DNA from: a virus
Direction: 5' to 3' (one strand)
Length of the DNA stretch: 64,000 nucleotides
Virus record (IMG/VR): IMGVR_UViG_3300045974_000166
Span: 96,001 to 160,000 of that record
Part shown: piece by piece, positions 22,640-62,676 of the stretch
How positions within the stretch are numbered: position 1 is the stretch's first letter
How the letters are laid out: every line of letters starts with the position of its first letter
Notes under the pieces: model-generated
The model's database searches: none
Seen by the model: the letters and a program-made list of their open reading frames with translations, nothing else
Told to the model about the DNA's origin: nothing
Position numbers and translations under genes: made by a program

Positions 22640-23657
22640 TGACTATTTTCTTCAAGTTTCATATGCTAAAATTTTAGGATCTAGGTTAGAAAGATTCCGG
22701 GTTAAAAAAGAATCTCCATTTTTGGCTGCGGCCAGATGTCCAGTCTGTGGTGATTCTGCTAAGGTAAAAACAAAGACACGATTTCAACTCTATGAGAAAA
22801 ATCATTCAATAAACTGTCTTTGCTTTAATTGTGGTCTTTCGACTACTCTAACTAGTTTCTTAAAGACTCACTATAAGCAGTTGTTTGATGAATTCATATT
22901 TGAGAAATTTAGACATAATGCACCAGCTGCAAAAAAAGAATTCGTACCGGAAATAGTAAAATATGAACAGTGTGACGAACCAGATGAATTGAAGTTGCAA
23001 TTGGTCTCTGACTTACCAGATGATCATTTTGCAAAGCAATACATAAAAGAGAGAAAACTTCCCGCTTACCCTTTTTATTATACGGACAAATTCTATGAAT
23101 ACTCTTCCCAGTTTAATGACACCTTCGAATCAAACACAAGAGACGAAGCCCGCATCATCATTCCCTTCTTCGACAGAAAAGGCAAGATCTTTGCGTACCA
23201 GGGAAGAGACCTTTCAGACCACTCAAACCAAAAATACATCACAGTCAAAATTAATGAAAAGACGCCTCTGTTATTTGGTTTCGAGCGACTTGACTTAAAT
23301 AAACCTATGACCTTGTTAGAAGGTCCTTTAGATTCTCTATTCATAGAAAATGCCATGGCATCTGTGAATGCATCTCTTGCGACTACTGCTAACTGGTTTT
23401 TAAAAGGAACTAAGATCAACAGTGATTTACTCACTGTTGTACTAGATAATGAACCGAGAAATAGAGCGGTAGTGAAGGAATATGAAAAAGCTATTGAGTC
23501 AGGATTAAAGATAGTAATCTGGCCAAAAGTCGTTGAACAATACAAAGACATAAACAACATGATTATCCATGGAATAGACCCAGTAACTCTGATCAAGAGT
23601 AATACATATAAGGGTTTAATGGCAAACTTAAAACTAAATGAATGGAAAAAGGTATAA
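22626..23657 (+). CDS. gp61: DNA primase
   Basis: RCPVCGDS...C.NCG zinc finger; IIPF......AYQGR, KYIT, EGPLDSLF, DNEPRN, KDIN. Confidence 0.96.
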   Translation: MQFNDDYFLQVSYAKILGSRLERFRVKKESPFLAAARCPVCGDSAKVKTKTRFQLYEKNHSINCLCFNCGLSTTLTSFLKTHYKQLFDEFIFEKFRHNAPAAKKEFVPEIVKYEQCDEPDELKLQLVSDLPDDHFAKQYIKERKLPAYPFYYTDKFYEYSSQFNDTFESNTRDEARIIIPFFDRKGKIFAYQGRDLSDHSNQKYITVKINEKTPLLFGFERLDLNKPMTLLEGPLDSLFIENAMASVNASLATTANWFLKGTKINSDLLTVVLDNEPRNRAVVKEYEKAIESGLKIVIWPKVVEQYKDINNMIIHGIDPVTLIKSNTYKGLMANLKLNEWKKV

Positions 23658-50887: not shown

Positions 50888-51130
50888 TTGCATGATATGA
50901 GGTACGATGAGTTTAGAATGGCTCACTATGCCACATATCAACCACAACTTCGTGGTCCAGGATTTGAAGATGAAAGCATCACCGATTGGAAAAACCGTTG
51001 GGTTACTCGTATGTCTTCTCTGCAAATCCGTACGTGCATGGTTCATGAATTTGGGCACTACAATAGTGAGTGGAAAGATGTTGCCGAGGTAGTTATTCCG
51101 GCGTCCGAATGGTATAAGGAAACAAAATGA
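50888..51130 (+). CDS. Hypothetical protein
   Basis: LQ.R........SEW.DV..V; ATGA overlap with the ligase. Confidence 0.55.
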   Translation: MHDMRYDEFRMAHYATYQPQLRGPGFEDESITDWKNRWVTRMSSLQIRTCMVHEFGHYNSEWKDVAEVVIPASEWYKETK

Positions 51131-52185
51131 CAGAAGTTTATGTTCGTAAAATGGCATCTATTCAAAAGATTGCCGAAGTAAAGGCTATCCCTGACGCAGA
51201 CAAGATCTGTGCTTACAGGGTGAATGGCTGGTGGATTGTTGACCAAGTCGGCAAGTATGTCGTGGGTGATCTTGTTGTGTACGCAGAACCAGATTCTTTC
51301 ATTCCGAGCACACTTGCACCTTTCTTGACGAAGCCAGGACATTTCCCCAAGACGTATCTTGGTGTCGAAGGTGAAAAACTTCGCACGATCCGTCTGCGCA
51401 AGCAATTGTCACAAGGGCTGTTGCTGCCATTTACTCCAGAAATTGCAATCAAGGGGTTGGGCGCTGGGCCTGGGGCAAAATTTTCGGATTATGAAGGTGC
51501 TGATGTTTCTGAATTTCTCGGCATTGTAAAGTGGGAAGCACCACCTGAGTTTACTTCTGCTGATGCTCGTGGATCATTCCCATCGTTCATCATCAAGACT
51601 GACCAAGAACGTGTGCAAAACTGCTTCCGTGATATGGAAGAACATTTTGAACACCAAACATGGGAAGTCACAGAGAAGTGCGAAGGCTCTTCAATGACCG
51701 TGTACCAACGTCAAGGTGATTTTGGTGTTTGCTCACGCAACTTGGATTTGAAAGAATCTGAGGACAACACATTCTGGAAGATGGCTATTGAGCTTGGTCT
51801 GAAGGAAAAGTTGATCGAAGGTGGGTTGAATATTGCTATTCAAGGTGAACTTTGTGGTCCTGGAATTCAGGGTAACATTTACAACTTGACCAAGCACATG
51901 TTCTTCGTGTTTGATATTTTTGACATTGACAAGTTTGAATACTTTAACCCGCACGAACGTAGGTTCCATACAGCACTGCTTGGGTTGACTGATGTGCCTG
52001 TGCTTGAACGTGAAGCAAATCTGGTTGGGCATACATGTGAATCACTGCTATCAAAGGCCGATGGCCAGTCTGTACTTGGGTTGATTGGATGCCTGCGTGA
52101 AGGTGAAGTTTACAAGTTGAATTCGAATCGGCGTATTTCATTCAAAGCAGTGTCAAATAAATATCTTGAAAAGGTTAAGGATTAA
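51127..52185 (+). CDS. RNA ligase (DRB0094 family)
   Basis: RKMASIQ.I..V..I..AD.I....V.GW, E.DSF.P, .R.R.Q.SQGL, FP.FI.KTDQER.QN, TEK.EGSSMT, QGE..GPGIQGN, EG.V, SFKA.SN.YL. Confidence 0.92.
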   Translation: MTEVYVRKMASIQKIAEVKAIPDADKICAYRVNGWWIVDQVGKYVVGDLVVYAEPDSFIPSTLAPFLTKPGHFPKTYLGVEGEKLRTIRLRKQLSQGLLLPFTPEIAIKGLGAGPGAKFSDYEGADVSEFLGIVKWEAPPEFTSADARGSFPSFIIKTDQERVQNCFRDMEEHFEHQTWEVTEKCEGSSMTVYQRQGDFGVCSRNLDLKESEDNTFWKMAIELGLKEKLIEGGLNIAIQGELCGPGIQGNIYNLTKHMFFVFDIFDIDKFEYFNPHERRFHTALLGLTDVPVLEREANLVGHTCESLLSKADGQSVLGLIGCLREGEVYKLNSNRRISFKAVSNKYLEKVKD

Positions 52186-54703: not shown

Positions 54704-54732
54704 TTTACACATATTCCGGGATGGTTTATAAT
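54704..54732 (+). promoter_or_regulatory. Early promoter of RNA island, copy 1
   Basis: TTTACA-17nt-TATAAT. Confidence 0.85.
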
Positions 54733-54784: not shown

Positions 54785-54973
54785 GTTGTTAGGTTCTGAC
54801 TCACTCTAAGGTGAGTATGGTAGCCCTGGGTATTAAGTCCCAATGGGTGAGGTGAAACCAATTAGTTGTTCGGACGTCACGCAAGTGAAGGGTAGCTCAA
54901 AAAGAGCAAGGTAAAGAACCGCAGTATCCGCAAGGACTGTAATTGGCGTAATGTAAGAAATTTCCCTAACAAC
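54785..54973 (+). ncRNA. Candidate structured ncRNA (about 190 nt)
   Basis: Closing stem GTTGTTAGG/CCTAACAAC; internal GNRA-capped hairpins (GTGA, GCAA twice). Confidence 0.5.
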
Positions 54974-54991: not shown

Positions 54992-55020
54992 TTTACACAT
55001 AATGCAAATTGTGGTATAAT
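54992..55020 (+). promoter_or_regulatory. Early promoter of RNA island, copy 2
   Basis: TTTACA-17nt-TATAAT. Confidence 0.85.
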
Positions 55021-55028
55021 TAATCTTT

Positions 55029-55068
55029 CAAACAGATCATCGAATTTGTTTGTTTAGTTCCTTAACAA
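55029..55068 (+). promoter_or_regulatory. boxB-like hairpin + boxA leader, copy 2
   Basis: CAAACAGAT-CATCGa-ATTTGTTTG then GTTCCTTAACAA. Confidence 0.65.
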
Positions 55069-55637
55069 TATAGTAGACAAGATTCCTTGCATTGACGACA
55101 TAAAAAGTGTGTCCTCGATCGTGAGATTACAGGTGCTAACAGATAGGGTAAAACGTATCCAAGGCAAGTGTGAGGAGTCATTTTGAAGTATCGTAGGTGA
55201 TCCAAACTGCTCCACGAGGTTTGTGGTAGGTGATCTGGACGGTATTTCAAAATGACATTTTGAAGTATTTTAGTTTGAACGTACTCCTGGATCTTAATTG
55301 AAAAAGGCACGCCAGTATTCCTAAAGTATTTCAAAATGATTATCCCAAGACAATAGCGCAACGATAAGATCCGTGCAGACACAATTCTACAATAGCAGCA
55401 CGATATTGGGATGTCATTTTAAAACATACTTAGATGCTAGTTCGATTCTAGGCCTGGGTAAGAGTAGCATAATTTGGCAATGCGAACGTATGTTTTAAAA
55501 TGATTGTCTGATTGTGCATTAGTAGTTTAAGCAGAGGAAGACGTCATTTTGAAGTATTTTGTGTAATTCCCGTCTCAACGGTATGCCGTCCCAACAGCTA
55601 ACCGCGTAGGTAACAAAGTATTTCAAAATGATTTTAT

Positions 55638-55731
55638 GGGCTAACACCGGTAGGATCCGGCCAGTGGTCGTCAATGACTCAGTATGGAATGAAAGCTTTG
55701 AAGTAGGTTCGAGTCCTACCTTGGTCCACCA
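55638..55731 (+). ncRNA. tRNA-like RNA with aberrant D/anticodon region
   Basis: 7-bp acceptor GGGCTAA/TTGGTCC, canonical T arm GTAGG-TTCGAGT-CCTAC, 3' ACCA. Confidence 0.5.
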
Positions 55732-56055
55732 ATTTTATTCCTCGGACTGGAAATACAGTGATGAATCCGTAAGCCGCTCGATAGCCCAAGGGTCACTGTA
55801 TAGTTGTGTTTGGAGTTAATATTACCAAGCACAGTGAAGTTAGATTCTTCATAGGGGAGCCAAATCACGCTTAGAGGTTGGGTGAAACCTCCGAGTACTT
55901 AAATGTACAATCCGCAGTACAGTGAGAAGCCCTGCGTTTATTTTAAAGCACATTGCCTGTGCGGACACAATGAGAAACATAGGTTCAAAGTGTGCTTTAA
56001 AATGGAATTAGCAAGAGTAATTAACTTGCTCCATTATCGGGAGTCATGACCCGAT

Positions 56056-56150
56056 GAACTCGTAGTGATGGAATTGGTAGACATAGGGCCCTTTCCGGGT
56101 CCTGCCGTAAAAAGCGTACAGGTTCGAGTCCTGTCTACAATGAGTTCGCA
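56056..56150 (+). ncRNA. tRNA-like RNA: Leu/Ser-type body, TTC anticodon, bulged 10-bp acceptor, no CCA
   Basis: D arm ATGGAATTGGTAGACAT, long variable arm, T arm ACAGG-TTCGAGT-CCTGT. Confidence 0.5.
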
Positions 56151-56539
56151 TTTTAAAGTATTCTGCAACGGCCGATTGTGGTCAAATAGACGAAGAGCGT
56201 ATAAGGTTGGTACCAACCTAAATCCCAGTAGGTTTATGAAGTAGAATGCTTTAAAATGATTTCAATCCACAATCCTCGCTCATCTGGGGATTACAATATG
56301 GGAATTAACCCTAAATGCGATGAGGCATTGACATCCTGTAAGGGTGTATAGCTTGAATTAACAGGGTGGATCGAAATGATTTTATAGTTGAAGGCATTGC
56401 ACTATCTGAGAAACACATCAGTAGGGTTGCTCCTACACCGGTGTGAAAAGTCGGAATTCGTTCTTCGCAGAGTTCAATAACCGTATTGGGACGAAGGTAA
56501 AGTGTTTTGAACAGTGCCTTCAACTATAAATAGAAATAT

Positions 56540-56615
56540 GGGCTGGTAGTGATACTGGGGTACACGAGGCACTTGCAATGCTTAGATTGGAGTTCGATCC
56601 TCCACCGGTCCACCA
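56540..56615 (+). tRNA. tRNA-Ala(TGC)
   Basis: Cloverleaf, G3:U70, CCA. Confidence 0.9.
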
Positions 56616-56622
56616 AAAATTT

Positions 56623-56694
56623 GCGGGTTGTTTGTGGAATACGTTTAGCCTTCCAAGCTGAAAGATGCAGGTTCGAACCCTGTAGCCCGCTCCA
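56623..56694 (+). tRNA. tRNA-Gly(TCC)
   Basis: Acceptor GCGGGTT, loop CTTCCAA, T arm, TCCA end; weak D arm. Confidence 0.8.
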
Positions 56695-56703
56695 CTTTAA
56701 TGA

Positions 56704-56780
56704 GTCCCAGTAGCCGAATAGGTATAGGCAGCTGTCTTAAAAGCAGTAATCTGTGGGTTCGAGTCCCACTTGGGACACCA
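56704..56780 (+). tRNA. tRNA-Leu(TAA), short variable loop
   Basis: Loop CTTAAAA, T arm, ACCA. Confidence 0.8.
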
Positions 56781-56787
56781 AGAATAA

Positions 56788-56863
56788 GCCAATGTGGGAC
56801 AGGGGTTGTCCAGCTGATTGTCTATCAGCCTTTATGACGGTTCGAGTCCGTTCGTTGGCGCCA
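56788..56863 (+). tRNA. tRNA-Asp(GTC)
   Basis: GCTGA-TTGTCTA-TCAGC, G73, CCA. Confidence 0.8.
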
Positions 56864-56868
56864 AGTTA

Positions 56869-56927
56869 AGGATCAGTTCAGCAAAAACTAAAAACTTTGA
56901 ATCATTCTCAAACTAAAAGTTGATCCT
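56869..56927 (+). ncRNA. Y-RNA-like element, copy 1 (short)
   Basis: AGGATCA/TGATCCT stem, GTTCAGCAA motif, A-rich interior. Confidence 0.5.
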
Positions 56928-56932
56928 GTTAA

Positions 56933-57271: not shown

Positions 57272-57360
57272 ATCATTCCGAAGCATAAAGCAACCGTGGC
57301 AGAGATCGTCACAACTAACCATGGAATAGATGTGTTGCTCCATGTATGCTTCGGAATGAT
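57272..57360 (+). ncRNA. Stem-enclosed RNA cassette (same family as the 55177-56530 array)
   Basis: ATCATTCCGAAGCATA / TATGCTTCGGAATGAT perfect 16 bp. Confidence 0.55.
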
Positions 57361-57545: not shown

Positions 57546-57803
57546 TTCGTTGTAGTATAGAGGAAGGTAGAGTAGTATTGAGTATGTGAGATAAGGCATC
57601 TAGTAGTGCAAAGTAGATAACAATCGCGTAGGCTTAAAAAAACCAAACACTGTGAGCCGGGGAAGTGCCGGACAGGTTGAAATGCATGAAGAGTGAGATA
57701 AGGCGCAGAGGGGATATGAGGGTAACTTTGGGAAATACACGGGCCACCCAGCATACGCGATTTTGGGCCCTAGTCGCAGGTTCGAGCCCTGCCAATGAAG
57801 CCA
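57546..57803 (+). ncRNA. 258-nt tRNA-framed RNA with a giant D-loop insertion
   Basis: Acceptor TTCGTTG/CAATGAA-G-CCA, D stem GTAT...ATAC, stem GGGCC/GGCCC with 20-nt loop, canonical T arm. Confidence 0.6.
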
Positions 57804-57806
57804 AGT

Positions 57807-57959
57807 TTTGAAGTGTAGATGTTGAGAACACAGGAACTCGAAAGCCCTGTAAGCAGATTTAGCGATCTATGTACCAACTATTACTACGTATCTCTAACCC
57901 ACCGCGGCTAGTATTCATGGGTAAAATGGTTCCGAATGAGGGAGACGGAACACTTCAAA
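57807..57959 (+). ncRNA. Stem-enclosed RNA cassette
   Basis: TTTGAAGTG / CACTTCAAA closing stem. Confidence 0.4.
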
Positions 57960-57968
57960 TTCATTTTT

Positions 57969-58023
57969 AGGTTCCGTTCAGCAAATTCAAAAATTTCACT
58001 TTTAATGAAAAAATAAGGAACCT
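57969..58023 (+). ncRNA. Y-RNA-like element, copy 2 (short)
   Basis: AGGTTCC/GGAACCT stem, GTTCAGCAA motif. Confidence 0.5.
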
Positions 58024-58031
58024 GTTATTTT

Positions 58032-58107
58032 AGCCTTGTATTCAATCGTAGTTGAAACCTCTCTCATAAAGAGGATATAGGCGGTTAGACTCCGTCCTAG
58101 GCCACCA
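58032..58107 (+). tRNA. tRNA-Met/Ile2(CAT), degenerate
   Basis: CCTCT-CTCATAA-AGAGG; T loop TTAGACT; acceptor mismatches. Confidence 0.6.
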
Positions 58108-58109
58108 AA

Positions 58110-58475
58110 TACTAAGTTGTTTGCTAGTAGTAGAGTAGATGGAAACCGAGCCGGAAAGATGTTCCGGTCTTCACAGAAATGTGACAAACGATAAGCAAAG
58201 TCGGTCCAGTAGGGAGTCGAAAGCAAACAATGGCGGAAAGACCTGCCGAGGACAGAAGTTAAGATCATACACAGACGGCCCACATGGTACCGACTGGCAA
58301 TTCGATCCTAACGCCGTGTATTCCTTCCCAAATTGAATCAAGTGGAAAGCAAGAGCCACAAAGTAAATGTTAGATGATCATGGCTGCTCGGTCATCTTTG
58401 CTGTGATACACGGCGTCAGTTGTCCGCAAGGGTAGCAATTGAGAAACAACGGGGTAAGAATCCCAACTAAGAGTA
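58110..58475 (+). ncRNA. Candidate large structured ncRNA (about 365 nt)
   Basis: Terminal pairing TACT..AGTTG / CAACT..AGTA; long-range ACGCCGTGTAT / ATACACGGCGT; many GNRA loops. Confidence 0.55.
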
Positions 58476-58489
58476 TGCCTCCAATTTTC

Positions 58490-58564
58490 ACCGCGTTCGA
58501 CTTCTGGTGAGGTCAACAGCCTTTCAAGCTGTGTAGACGGGCTCGAAACCCGTACGCGGTACCA
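58490..58564 (+). tRNA. tRNA-Glu(TTC)
   Basis: ACAGC-CTTTCAA-GCTGT, ACCA. Confidence 0.85.
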
Positions 58565-58625
58565 ACATTTGAAGACGCCAAGGTTACCTGCACCATAACG
58601 GCAAGCAGGACTTCAAATTCAATTC

Positions 58626-59689: not shown

Positions 59690-60253
59690 ATGAATAGGTA
59701 TCCATTAGTGCTAACACTAGATTCTGCAGGTATTCCGCAGAGATGGTCTACCTGGGAAGAAGGTGTCGTGGCAAAATACAAAGGCGTTATCGCTTGGTCA
59801 CTTGGTGAAGAAACCATCTACCGGGGCGGTAACTCAAGACTTACTGGCGAACAATCAACCGTAGCAGTTCCATCTATTATTGCTATTCGATCTATGGGTC
59901 GTACAAAGAACCGAGCAGTGCCACTTACAAACAAGAATTTGTTTGGGCGTGACCGGAACATTTGTTGTTACTGTGGTACTCATGTGAAAGATCATGACGC
60001 TACACGTGACCATATTGTTCCGTATGCTAAGAAAGGTACGAACGTTTGGATGAATGTTGTTACTGCATGTAAGCCTTGCAATAACTATAAGGATGACAAA
60101 ACTGTAGAACAAGCTGGGCTAGAGATGCTATATGCACCTTATGTCCCAGATCGTGCAGAAGCTTTGATTCTTGCCAACCGTAACATTTTGGCAGATCAAA
60201 TGGAATTCTTATTGGCACATTTGCCTAAGCATTCTCGGGCACGACCACATTAG
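59690..60253 (+). CDS. HNH endonuclease
   Basis: LFGRDRNICCYCG, TRDHIVP..K.G...WMNVVTACK.CN..K. Confidence 0.92.
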   Translation: MNRYPLVLTLDSAGIPQRWSTWEEGVVAKYKGVIAWSLGEETIYRGGNSRLTGEQSTVAVPSIIAIRSMGRTKNRAVPLTNKNLFGRDRNICCYCGTHVKDHDATRDHIVPYAKKGTNVWMNVVTACKPCNNYKDDKTVEQAGLEMLYAPYVPDRAEALILANRNILADQMEFLLAHLPKHSRARPH

Positions 60254-60347: not shown

Positions 60348-60459
60348 AGGATCAGTTCAGCATTTAATATACCAAGCAGCTTGTTGTGAGTTCGATTCTC
60401 ACCTTCCGAGTAATCGGTTGTAGTTCAACGGTAGAACAGCCGCCAATTAAAGTGATCCT
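60348..60459 (+). ncRNA. YrlA-like Y RNA with circularly permuted tRNA module (copy 4)
   Basis: AGGATCA/TGATCCT stem + GTTCAGCA; T arm 60386-60402, closed acceptor 60403-60420 with GTAA loop, TA + D arm 60423-60437. Confidence 0.7.
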
Positions 60460-60470
60460 GCTAAATATAC

Positions 60471-60741: not shown

Positions 60742-60815
60742 AGGTGGTTGGTGTAATGGCAACATTGCGGTCTCCAAAATCGTCGATCGGGGTTCGAGTC
60801 CCTGGCTGCCTGCCA
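60742..60815 (+). tRNA. tRNA-Trp(CCA)
   Basis: Loop CTCCAAA, G73, CCA. Confidence 0.88.
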
Positions 60816-60828
60816 AGACAATTTAGGT

Positions 60829-60902
60829 GTGGCCTTATCATAAAAGTAATGACCTAGGCTGTGAACTTAGTTAAGAGGGAGCATTACCCTCAGGTCACCC
60901 CT
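60829..60902 (+). tRNA. tRNA-His(GTG), degenerate
   Basis: Acceptor GTGGCCT/AGGTCAC, C73, loop CTGTGAA; T loop AGCATTA; ends CCT and -1 base is T. Confidence 0.55.
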
Positions 60903-60913
60903 AAATTGTTTTT

Positions 60914-60990
60914 GCGGATGTGGCGAAATTGGTAAACGCAGCGGTCTTAGAAGCCGTAGGCTGTGGGTTCGAGTCCCACCATCCGCACCA
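60914..60990 (+). tRNA. tRNA-Leu(TAG), short variable loop
   Basis: Leu-type D arm, loop CTTAGAA, ACCA. Confidence 0.88.
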
Positions 60991-61067
60991 AAATTTACGG
61001 GGAGCAACTAATCATTGCCGCTATATGTCCATACCCCGTGGGTATAGTGTTTCCCTGTAAAACTTAC

Positions 61068-62433: not shown

Positions 62434-62507
62434 GGGGTTGAAACTTTAAAGTGAAGTACCGGTCTTTTAAACCGGCTAATTCGGAGCGTTACCGAACTAC
62501 CCTACCA
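62434..62507 (+). tRNA. tRNA-Lys(TTT)
   Basis: CCGGT-CTTTTAA-ACCGG, ACCA; T loop AGCGTTA. Confidence 0.72.
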
Positions 62508-62605
62508 TATCTAAATACACTATCGTTTGATCAACGACGCTTGGAGCTACCGGAACAGCATGCACCGGGTGAGGTTCGATTCCTCTAGTGTATTTAGATA
62601 TGGTA
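62503..62605 (+). ncRNA. Cassette enclosed by a perfect 20-bp stem overlapping both flanking tRNAs
   Basis: TACCATATCTAAATACACTA / TAGTGTATTTAGATATGGTA; interior ends in GAGG-TTCGATT-CCTC. Confidence 0.55.
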
Positions 62606-62676
62606 CAGTAGCATTAAGATAATGCAACATCTTCATACGGTGTCCTAAGTGGGTTTGATTCCCACCCGTACCACCA
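62602..62676 (+). tRNA. tRNA-Met/Ile2(CAT)
   Basis: ACATC-TTCATAC-GGTGT, ACCA. Confidence 0.75.

What the first reader, a model, noticed from the sequence alone, without database searches (positions are those of the whole stretch)
55177..56530. Array of unrelated small RNA cassettes, each clamped by a related long inverted repeat
At least eight back-to-back units have 10-19 bp closing stems, most with related arms (CATTTT(G/A)AAGTAT...ATACTT-like complement) enclosing roughly 40-110 nt of unrelated, internally structured sequence. Further members lie at 57272-57360, 57807-57959, 58568-58617 and 62503-62605. Wobble-preserving substitutions indicate selection on RNA pairing rather than DNA palindromes. 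No credible ORFs span the array, which sits downstream of a boxA leader. Inference: a polycistronic sRNA factory in which RNase III-like cleavage of the clamp releases a library of small RNAs (decoys for host defences or toxins, anti-CRISPR-like RNAs, or regulators). I know no named feature type for it.
Basis: partly seen in the sequence, partly recalled or inferred. Interest (0 to 1): 0.8.

Follow-up and report, generated by a model that had tools for sequence, protein, structure and literature searches.

The report
Phage small RNAs sharing one handle
A T4-like phage carries a row of small structured RNA genes closed by the same 16-17 base-pair helix. In related phages that helix is a single-copy element right behind the gene of a Ro60-shaped RNA-binding protein, with dozens of different inserts, so it is probably an undescribed handle-plus-cargo RNA family.

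Summary
Window 55177-56530 is one ORF-free + strand transcription unit: promoter 54992-55020, hairpin plus boxA-like leader, the array, then five tRNAs. It holds nine clamped units with fold z-scores of -3 to -6.5. Six share one "B handle", a 16-17 bp helix CAUUUURAARYAUAYU / ARURURYUUYAAAAUG.

The handle is an RNA-level structure. On the strand set independently by genes and tRNAs I counted 65 G.U against 2 A.C, with compensatory changes. It is absent from Rfam and from 596 Gb of cellular genomes.

In 43 of 52 other viral contigs with the handle, it lies 23-41 nt after the stop codon of a DUF2828+vWA protein. Complete genomes of that clade hold one copy. I show that this protein folds like Ro60. 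There the handle is bare or carries one of about 40 unrelated structured inserts. In this lineage it moved into the tRNA operon and multiplied.

Best reading: modular Y-RNA-like small RNAs, with a common handle and variable cargo. Binding to the Ro60-like protein and release by RNase III are inferred, not shown.

The scan had already found a different "A handle" beside DUF2828 on other DNA. The B handle is distinct from it.

The parts
54992..55020 (+). sigma-70-type promoter TTTACA-17 nt-TATAAT of the transcription unit that holds the array
   Evidence: 11 of 12 matches, TG extension. The same promoter recurs at 54704 and 56933.
55029..55069 (+). leader: hairpin CAAACA...UGUUUG followed by the boxA-like AGUUCCUUAACAAU
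   Evidence: Read. Compared from memory with E. coli rrn boxA UGCUCUUUAACAA. The leader is 93% conserved in L049 and 81% in L038.
55177..55257 (+). unit 1: B handle (18 bp) plus a 44-nt cargo with a conserved GGUGAUC scaffold and a variable tip
   Evidence: z -6.5. The ortholog in L018:9628-9711 has identical flanks and a replaced centre.
55256..55339 (+). unit 2: B handle (18 bp) plus a 47-nt cargo, abutting unit 1 with no spacer
   Evidence: z -3.8. Orthologs in L018 and L049 have a conserved scaffold and an unalignable centre.
55341..55413 (+). unit 3: an 8-bp clamp AUCCCAAG/UAUUGGGAU, not the B handle
   Evidence: z -3.0. Conserved together with unit 2 in L018.
55413..55504 (+). unit 4: B handle (17 bp) carrying a YrlA-type permuted tRNA module (T arm, short stem, D arm)
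   Evidence: RF02553, 28.7 bits, below the gathering score of 69; z -4.5. The cargo is nearly identical in L034 while the inner handle changed with compensation.
55543..55632 (+). unit 5: B handle (20 bp) plus a 50-nt cargo of three small hairpins
   Evidence: z -5.3
55638..55735 (+). tRNA-like RNA with a T arm and a CCA end; ARAGORN does not call it a tRNA
   Evidence: tRNA-Sec model, 19.4 bits, weak. The T arm matches phage tRNAs.
55937..56006 (+). unit 9: B handle variant UAUUUUAAAGCAC (18 bp) plus a 34-nt cargo
   Evidence: z -5.3
56149..56258 (+). unit 11: B handle (18 bp) plus a 74-nt cargo, directly after an 84-nt tRNA-like gene (56059-56142)
   Evidence: z -5.6
56260..56378 (+). unit 12: multi-hairpin RNA closed by a short interrupted stem, not the B handle
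   Evidence: z -3.5
56381..56530 (+). unit 13: a 19-bp clamp UUAUAGUUGAAGGCAUUG, not the B handle, around a 112-nt cargo
   Evidence: z -5.3. 85% conserved in L018:10370-10527.
56540..56863 (+). four tRNA genes called by ARAGORN (Ala, Gly, Leu, Asp) that end the same transcription unit, followed by an A-handle RNA at 56872-56930
   Evidence: The A-handle motif GGAUCAGUUCAGCAA...GAUCCUGUUA was read.
57272..57360 (+). outlying B-handle variant CAUUCCGAAGCAUA (16 bp), behind the third boxA leader and 8 nt before tRNA-Tyr
   Evidence: z -5.8. L038:15939-16025 has CAUUCUAAAGCAUA with both changes compensated.
58566..58619 (+). short B-like hairpin AUUUGAAG/CUUCAAAU between tRNA-Glu and tRNA-Ile
   Evidence: z -2.45; weak

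Best explanation
The array is a co-transcribed set of small stable RNAs built on a plug-in design.

Six to seven units are closed by one conserved helix of fixed length, 16-17 bp. I call it the B handle: 5'-CAUUUURAARYAUAYU paired with ARURURYUUYAAAAUG-3'. Each unit carries a different structured insert (cargo) at the tip of that helix.

In most phages that have it, the handle is a single-copy element placed 23-41 nt behind the stop codon of a Ro60-shaped protein (DUF2828 + vWA) and just in front of a tRNA. There it is either a bare hairpin or loaded with one of about 40 unrelated cargos. In this phage lineage the handle has left that slot and multiplied at the head of a tRNA operon.

I infer that the handle is the common module recognised by one factor, and that the Ro60-like protein is the best candidate. 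That would make these RNAs work like Y RNAs, where a terminal stem holds the protein and the variable body mimics or recruits something else. One cargo here is a YrlA-type tRNA mimic.

Release from the polycistron would need a double-strand-specific cut in or at the foot of the handles, because units 1 and 2 abut without a spacer. It would also need RNase P at the downstream tRNAs.

Shown: the anatomy, strand-specific RNA pairing, conservation, linkage to the gene, the Ro60 fold of the protein and cargo turnover. Inferred: binding, processing and what the cargos do.
For: Anatomy and significance.

RNA-level, strand-specific helix:
- 65 G.U against 2 A.C on the strand fixed independently by the DUF2828 gene or the tRNAs.
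- Compensatory changes occur even in the core. Position 7 varies among G-C, A-U, C-G and U-A, and position 6 between U-A and A-U.
- Pairing is at least 94% through position 16 and collapses after position 17.

One cargo family with its handle: 99% of cells paired, 7 pairs with double changes, 0 of 500 shuffles as good, slid controls at most 1.

Linkage to the gene:
- 24 of 29 loaded-pattern hits and 19 of 23 empty-pattern hits lie 23-41 nt after a DUF2828 ortholog on the same strand.
- In a sample drawn by the protein alone, 40 of 49 loci have the handle there, 27 loaded and 13 bare.
- Five near-complete genomes of that clade hold exactly one copy, the one behind the gene.
- The same loaded pattern gave 13 hits in 596 Gb of cellular genomes. 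None extended beyond the imposed stem by more than 1 bp, and none lay beside DUF2828; one locus holds a tRNA about 1.8 kb away.

The protein: Pfam DUF2828 + DUF7788/vWA. An AF2 model gave 13 top PDB matches that are all full-length Ro60/TROVE, E 9e-8 to 7e-4.

Cargo: 57 distinct units fall into 44 interior clusters. The cargo differs between loci with the same GC hairpin and the same downstream tRNA. Unit order and content differ between close relatives.

Unit 4 and the A-handle RNA at 60348-60462 both carry a YrlA-like module. The B handle therefore sits where the Ro60-binding stem sits in YrlA.
Against: - No binding, expression or processing data exist.
- The handle lacks the GNCGAAN0-1G / bulged-helix motif that Ro60 contacts in known Y RNAs (PMC4201824).
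- Pfam TROVE does not match the protein. The model is of middling confidence (pLDDT 68, TM about 0.47).
- A different RNA, the A handle (helix + GUUCAGCAA), is the general neighbour of DUF2828. It is upstream in 62 of 80 loci, none of which has a B handle within 3 kb. B is therefore clade-specific and need not bind the same protein.
- In the clade with the B handle the gene is embedded in a tRNA array, so adjacency could partly reflect that context.
- In this phage the array lies about 10 kb from the DUF2828 gene, which ends in a plain terminator.
- Bare handles suggest that the helix alone could be a cis-acting 3' element of the mRNA.
Confidence: 0.5

Rival explanations
1. The handles are mainly RNase III (or other dsRNA nuclease) processing sites, as in rRNA operons and T7 early RNA. 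Host RNase III cuts each 16-20 bp helix and releases a library of small RNAs, or simply separates and stabilises the flanking RNAs. No dedicated binding protein is involved. This can coexist with the best explanation.
For: - The helices are perfect, A/U-rich and 16-20 bp long, with a fixed length.
- Units 1 and 2 abut with no single-stranded spacer, so only a cut within dsRNA could separate them.
- An rrn-like boxA leader lies upstream.
- Bare handles sit between an mRNA and a tRNA, where a processing or stabilising hairpin would be useful.
- A B-like clamp lies next to the two-piece tmRNA, whose precursor must be cut.
Against: - A generic processing signal should recur between many RNA genes. 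Complete genomes of the related clade instead have one copy, always behind DUF2828.
- RNase III has little sequence specificity (my knowledge), which does not explain a nearly invariant 9-bp core across about 40 cargo types.
- The phage encodes no RNase III.
Confidence: 0.3
2. The handle is a cis-acting RNA element of the flanking genes, such as a 3' stabiliser or autoregulatory site of the DUF2828 mRNA, or a 5' protective element of tRNA precursors. The cargos are passengers that inserted into its loop and have no function of their own.
For: - Bare hairpins exist at the same slot.
- The 5' arm CAUUUU directly follows a GC hairpin, so it doubles as a terminator-like U tract.
- Handles always lie just 5' of tRNA or tmRNA genes.
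Against: - Cargos are under selection. One cargo family has covarying hairpins and conserved loops. The unit 4 cargo is nearly invariant between distant contigs while its handle drifts.
- In this phage the handles act away from the DUF2828 mRNA, in six or more tandem copies.
Confidence: 0.12
3. This is a DNA-level repeat: a MITE-, REP- or attC-like mobile palindrome, or a CRISPR-like mini-array. The palindromic junctions would be the repeats and the interiors would be spacers or passenger DNA.
For: - The arms are shared while the interiors are unrelated.
- Units are reshuffled between relatives.
- Junctions of neighbouring units form 28-nt palindromes.
Against: - Strand asymmetry of 65 G.U to 2 A.C always falls on the transcribed strand.
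- There is one copy per genome at one slot in most phages.
- Interior length ranges from 2 to more than 110 nt, with covarying helices.
- Interior flanks are conserved between phages.
- Nothing comparable exists in cellular genomes.
- I did not search for cas genes or transposases.
Confidence: 0.04

Closest known systems
Y RNAs with Ro60 (animal Y RNAs; bacterial Yrn1/Yrn2, YrlA/YrlB, Rfam RF02553; phage phiLo Yrl1/Yrl2 with phiRo60; PMC4201824, PMC12135203)
   Same: - Small RNAs of 60-130 nt closed by a long stem formed by their two ends, with a variable body.
- Several kinds per genome.
- Genes next to that of a Ro60-shaped HEAT-ring + vWA protein.
- Co-transcription with tRNAs (Yrn2 with tRNA-Asp).
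- One member (55413-55504) has the YrlA order of T and D arms.
   Different: - The handle is a perfect A/U-rich helix without the GNCGAA / GGUCCGA bulged motif.
- The protein is DUF2828, not a Pfam TROVE member.
- The RNA scores only 28.7 bits against a gathering score of 69 on the YrlA model.
- Bare handles and about 40 unrelated cargos are not known for Y RNAs.
- In this phage the array is about 10 kb from the protein gene.
A-handle RNAs beside DUF2828 (6-7 bp helix + (G)U(U/A)CAGCAA; noted repeatedly by this scan on other DNA and likened there to Dictyostelium Class I RNA, RF01414)
   Same: - The same handle-plus-swappable-cargo design.
- The same protein gene as neighbour.
- Present in the same operons and tRNA arrays (window 56872-56930, 57967-58024, 60348-60462).
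- A YrlA-like cargo occurs on both handles.
   Different: - The handle differs in sequence and shape: a short helix plus a single-stranded motif, against a 16-17 bp perfect helix.
- A lies upstream of the gene in nearly all DUF2828 clades. B lies downstream and in one clade only.
RNase III processing stems of rRNA operons and phage T7 early RNA (from my knowledge)
   Same: - Long-range 5'/3' helices that bracket a structured RNA within a polycistron.
- They lie behind a boxA antitermination leader.
   Different: - Those stems are not conserved in sequence between cargos.
- They are not linked to one protein gene.
- No cleavage is shown here.
Phage T4 stable RNAs C and D (species 1 and 2) in the tRNA cluster
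   Same: Non-tRNA stable RNAs of unknown function, co-transcribed with phage tRNAs in a T4-type genome.
   Different: No B-like closing helix. rnaC is a tRNA-framed RNA with a T arm, and rnaD folds no better than shuffles.

Membership tests
Y RNA / YrlA (Ro60 partner RNAs) | RNA of 80-130 nt with a long stem formed by its 5' and 3' ends and a large internal loop or body | tested here: met
   Loaded units are 63-128 nt with a 16-17 bp terminal helix.
Y RNA / YrlA (Ro60 partner RNAs) | gene lies next to the Ro60 ortholog (within 4 kb in Chen et al. 2014) | tested here: inconclusive
   Met for the family elsewhere: 43 of 52 contigs have it within 41 nt of the stop codon of the Ro60-like gene. Not met for this array, which lies about 10 kb from the gene.
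Y RNA / YrlA (Ro60 partner RNAs) | Ro60-binding motif GNCGAAN0-1G (GGUCCGA in animals) in the 5' strand of a bulged helix | tested here: not met
   The handle consensus CAUUUURAARYAUAYU is fully paired, with no CGAA. The motif is as given in PMC4201824.
Y RNA / YrlA (Ro60 partner RNAs) | partner protein is a Ro60 (TROVE HEAT ring + vWA) | tested here: inconclusive
   No Pfam TROVE match and no sequence match to PDB Ro60. However, the fold search puts 13 Ro60 chains on top over the full length (model pLDDT 68).
Y RNA / YrlA (Ro60 partner RNAs) | YrlA covariance model (RF02553) at the gathering score | tested here: not met
   The best B unit scores 28.7 bits against 69. The other units have no hit.
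Y RNA / YrlA (Ro60 partner RNAs) | physical binding to the protein | not testable with these tools
   No RNA-protein predictor and no RNA data were available.
DUF2828-associated A-handle RNAs | 6-7 bp terminal helix followed by (G)U(U/A)CAGCAA, with ...CCUGUUA at the 3' end | tested here: not met
   B units lack the motif. A units are separate elements in the same region.
RNase III processing site | about two turns of uninterrupted dsRNA, cut by RNase III | tested here: inconclusive
   The helix length of 16-20 bp is compatible. Cleavage was not testable. The phage has no RNase III gene.
CRISPR array | identical direct repeats separated by unstructured spacers of uniform length | tested here: not met
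   Interiors are 2-112 nt and structured, with flanks conserved between phages. I did not search for cas genes.
Decayed tRNA genes | interiors recognisable as tRNA or tRNA remnants | tested here: not met
   Only unit 4 has T- and D-arm-like parts, and the clamp at 62497-62611 holds a T arm. The other interiors have no tRNA or Rfam match.

The most novel reading that the evidence does not exclude
The B handle marks a second, undescribed class of RNA partners of phage Ro60-like proteins. It would be a natural plug-in scaffold on which phages exchange RNA cargos (tRNA mimics, decoys or aptamers for host factors) as cassettes. This phage has expanded it into a multi-cargo library expressed with its tRNAs.
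Probability: 0.3. Interest if true: 0.85.

Novelty: new variant of a known kind. Interest (0 to 1): 0.7.

Why it matters
Ro60/Y-RNA particles are known from animals, some bacteria and a few phages, but what the variable part of a Y RNA does is still largely open.

Here a conserved helix of fixed length carries about 40 unrelated structured inserts at one genomic slot, plus bare forms and an amplified array. That is a natural experiment in modular RNA design: the same handle with interchangeable bodies and fast turnover between close relatives.

If the handle binds the Ro60-like protein, each cargo is a candidate adaptor or decoy whose target can be fished out directly. The family is absent from Rfam and from the papers I could search, and it is confined to an uncultured clade of T4-like phages.

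Tried and rejected
- Rfam at gathering and at E-value thresholds gave only tRNAs and weak YrlA hits.
- blastn of the array against GenBank phages matched only tRNA-like pieces.
- Pfam searches of the genome found no TROVE, RtcB or RNase III.
- A profile of the DUF2828 protein against PDB sequences found nothing. Only the fold search found Ro60.
- T4 rnaC and rnaD have no similar clamp.
- The pattern scan of cellular genomes returned only chance-like hits.
- Literature searches for DUF2828, for phage Y RNAs and for non-tRNA RNAs in tRNA arrays found no description of this handle. One review could not be read.
- I looked for a shared motif among cargos (CGAA, GGUCC, T loops) and found nothing consistent.
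- I considered comparing gene content of genomes with and without the handle to find another partner protein. I dropped it because the two sets are different phage lineages.
- Chance palindromes, MITE/attC-like DNA elements and a CRISPR-like array were considered and rejected, as set out under the rival explanations.

Full report
**Setting.** The window is bases 96001-160000 of a 192,097-bp viral record rated complete. It is an uncultured T4-type phage. Portal, sheath and major head proteins are recognisable, and the head protein is at most 61% identical to any GenBank phage. Window 54.7-62.7 kb is a + strand island of RNA genes with 24-28 tRNAs. It is driven by repeated TTTACA-17-TATAAT promoters. 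Each promoter is followed by a hairpin and a boxA-like GUUC(U/C)UUAA(A/C)AA.

**The observation.** Between the promoter at 54992-55020 and the tRNAs at 56540-56863 there is no + strand ORF and no convincing terminator. The stretch folds into nine units whose two ends pair. The stems are 17-20 bp in seven units, and z-scores run from -3.0 to -6.5. Eight stems of at least 13 contiguous pairs occur, against 0.43 expected from shuffles.

Six units (55177, 55256, 55413, 55543, 55937, 56149) share the arms CAUUUURAA.../...UUYAAAAUG. I call this the B handle. A seventh copy lies at 57272-57360. Units at 55341, 56260 and 56381 have other clamps. The interiors do not resemble each other.

**RNA or DNA?** I fixed the sense strand of every locus from the DUF2828 gene or the tRNAs, not from the repeat itself. 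On that strand, 38 distinct units have 65 G.U and 2 A.C oppositions in the stem. Over 57 distinct units:
- positions 1-16 are paired in at least 94%, and pairing collapses after position 17;
- positions 7, 10, 11, 13 and 15 switch between different Watson-Crick pairs;
- rare variants of the core are compensated: CAUUUUCAA/UUGAAAAUG, CAUUUAGAA/UUCUAAAUG and CAUUCCGAA/UUCGGAAUG against CAUUCUAAA/UUUAGAAUG.

The core sequence was part of my search pattern, so its invariance is partly ascertainment. The fixed length and the pairing beyond position 13 are not.

**Distribution.** A pattern for loaded handles hit 29 IMG/VR contigs, and one for bare handles hit 23. In 24 and 19 of these, respectively, the handle starts 23-41 nt after the stop codon of an ortholog of one protein, on the same strand. 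It is preceded by a small GC hairpin and followed within about 20 nt by a tRNA.

Sampling by the protein instead of the RNA gave the handle in that slot in 40 of 49 loci, 27 loaded and 13 bare. Five near-complete genomes of this clade contain exactly one handle, the one in that slot.

The same loaded pattern in 596 Gb of bacterial and archaeal genomes gave 13 hits. None had more than 1 bp of stem beyond the imposed 13 bases, and none lay beside the protein; one locus holds a tRNA about 1.8 kb from the hit. The family is therefore real, viral and tied to one gene.

**The protein.** In this genome it is a 472-aa ORF about 7 kb beyond the window's end (L037:1459-2877). It matches Pfam DUF2828 plus DUF7788/vWA. 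Pfam TROVE does not match, and a sequence profile finds no solved relative. An AlphaFold2 model (pLDDT 68) has Ro60/TROVE chains as its 13 best PDB matches over the full length. These include the Thermus phage phiLo Ro60, Deinococcus Rsr and Xenopus Ro60, with E from 9e-8 to 7e-4 and TM about 0.47. The next matches cover only the vWA domain. I take it as a Ro60-shaped protein.

**Two RNA families around that gene.** Upstream of the gene lie one to three RNAs of another kind: a 6-7 bp helix, then GUUCAGCAA, ending in ...CCUGUUA. I call this the A handle. It is present here, in the loci above and in 62 of the 80 closest DUF2828 loci. None of those 80 has a B handle within 3 kb. A is therefore the general neighbour and B is specific to one clade. 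Other clades carry other RNAs in the downstream slot.

The scan has reported the A handle with DUF2828 on other DNA. B is distinct from it. In the window, A-type RNAs lie at 56872-56930, 57967-58024 and 60348-60462. The last scores 31.3 bits on the YrlA model. Unit 4 of the array (B handle) scores 28.7 bits with the same T-arm then D-arm order. The same kind of cargo thus sits on both handles, in the place where YrlA has its Ro60-binding stem.

**Cargo.** The 57 distinct B units fall into 44 interior clusters, five of them bare. Loci that share the GC hairpin and the downstream tRNA nevertheless carry different cargos.

Cargos are not junk:
- The GAAGUUGGUUC family (7 sequences) is a three-way junction with 99% pairing and 7 doubly changed pairs. 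None of 500 shuffles matched it, and slid controls gave at most 1.
- The unit 4 cargo is almost invariant between this phage and L034, while the inner handle changed with compensation.
- Units 1 and 2 keep their scaffold but have an unalignable centre in the nearest relatives.

Between relatives whose RNA ligase is 82-86% identical, units are reordered, lost or replaced. No cargo reaches an Rfam gathering score.

**Interpretation.** The common denominator is the helix itself. I think it is a handle read by one factor, and that the cargos are the variable working parts. The Ro60-like protein is the best candidate reader for three reasons:
- single-copy linkage to its gene;
- the Y-RNA-like architecture;
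- the shared YrlA-type cargo.

This is inference. The handle lacks the GNCGAA motif of known Y RNAs. The A handle may be the true partner. In the clade with the B handle the gene sits inside a tRNA array, which weakens the argument from adjacency.

Units 1 and 2 abut without a spacer, so they can be separated only by a cut in double-stranded RNA. The phage has no RNase III of its own. A purely generic processing role fits poorly with one copy per genome in the related clade. DNA-level explanations fit poorly with the strand asymmetry.

**Limits.**
- No transcript data could be obtained.
- The host is unknown.
- Many contigs are fragments, and several are near-duplicates, so counts of loci overstate independent lineages. 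The roughly 40 cargo types are the better measure.
- My fold of 57808-57957 trimmed two pairs of its stem.

Noticed in passing
window 54795-54960: A structured non-coding stretch of about 170 nt lies between two copies of the promoter + hairpin + boxA leader and is bracketed by a 28-nt imperfect inverted repeat. It is 81-90% conserved in L038 and L049. It has no Rfam match.
   Followed up: partly
window 56872-56930, 57967-58024, 60348-60462; L037:895-1440: A-handle RNAs (6-7 bp helix + GUUCAGCAA ... CCUGUUA). There are three in the tRNA island, one of them YrlA-like at 31.3 bits, and three directly in front of the DUF2828 gene.
   Followed up: partly
window 57546-57803 and 58105-58490: A 258-nt RNA has a tRNA acceptor stem (UUCGUUG/CAAUGAA), a T arm and a large insertion. 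A further non-coding stretch of about 375 nt is conserved in L038 (16030-17225). Neither matches Rfam.
   Followed up: no
G000 23506-23611 and 23335-23442 (- strand; L229): A B-like clamp UUAUAGCUACAUUUUGAG...CUCAAAAUGUAGCUAUAA around 70 nt lies just 5' of what reads as a two-piece (permuted) tmRNA. The tmRNA's roughly 100-nt intervening segment is closed by AAAAGUACUC/GAGUACUUUU. ARAGORN did not call the tmRNA.
   Followed up: partly
window 59690-60253; L038:14790-15430: Homing-endonuclease-type ORFs sit inside the tRNA arrays: an HNH here (Pfam) and an ORF in the relative L038 that looks like a GIY-YIG by eye.
   Followed up: no
L063, L090, L118 and others (first 100 nt after the DUF2828 stop codon): Other DUF2828 clades carry other conserved RNAs in the slot where the B handle sits. 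One example is ...CAGCGUCCGCGGUACACGAAA.GCGGGAUGGGCUGUGUAUCCGGGG in 13 of 80 loci, with a CGAA as in Y RNAs.
   Followed up: no
window 51127-52185: An RNA ligase (Pfam RNA_ligase + PHA02142 OB domain) lies 3 kb upstream of the array. It keeps this position in the relatives L038, L039 and L049.
   Followed up: partly
window 62497-62611, 60812-60915, 60995-61066: Spacers between tRNA genes are filled end to end by clamped structured RNAs with other arm sequences (z -6.3, -4.2, -2.6). The first holds a T arm just before its 3' arm, as does L038:13647-13753.
   Followed up: partly
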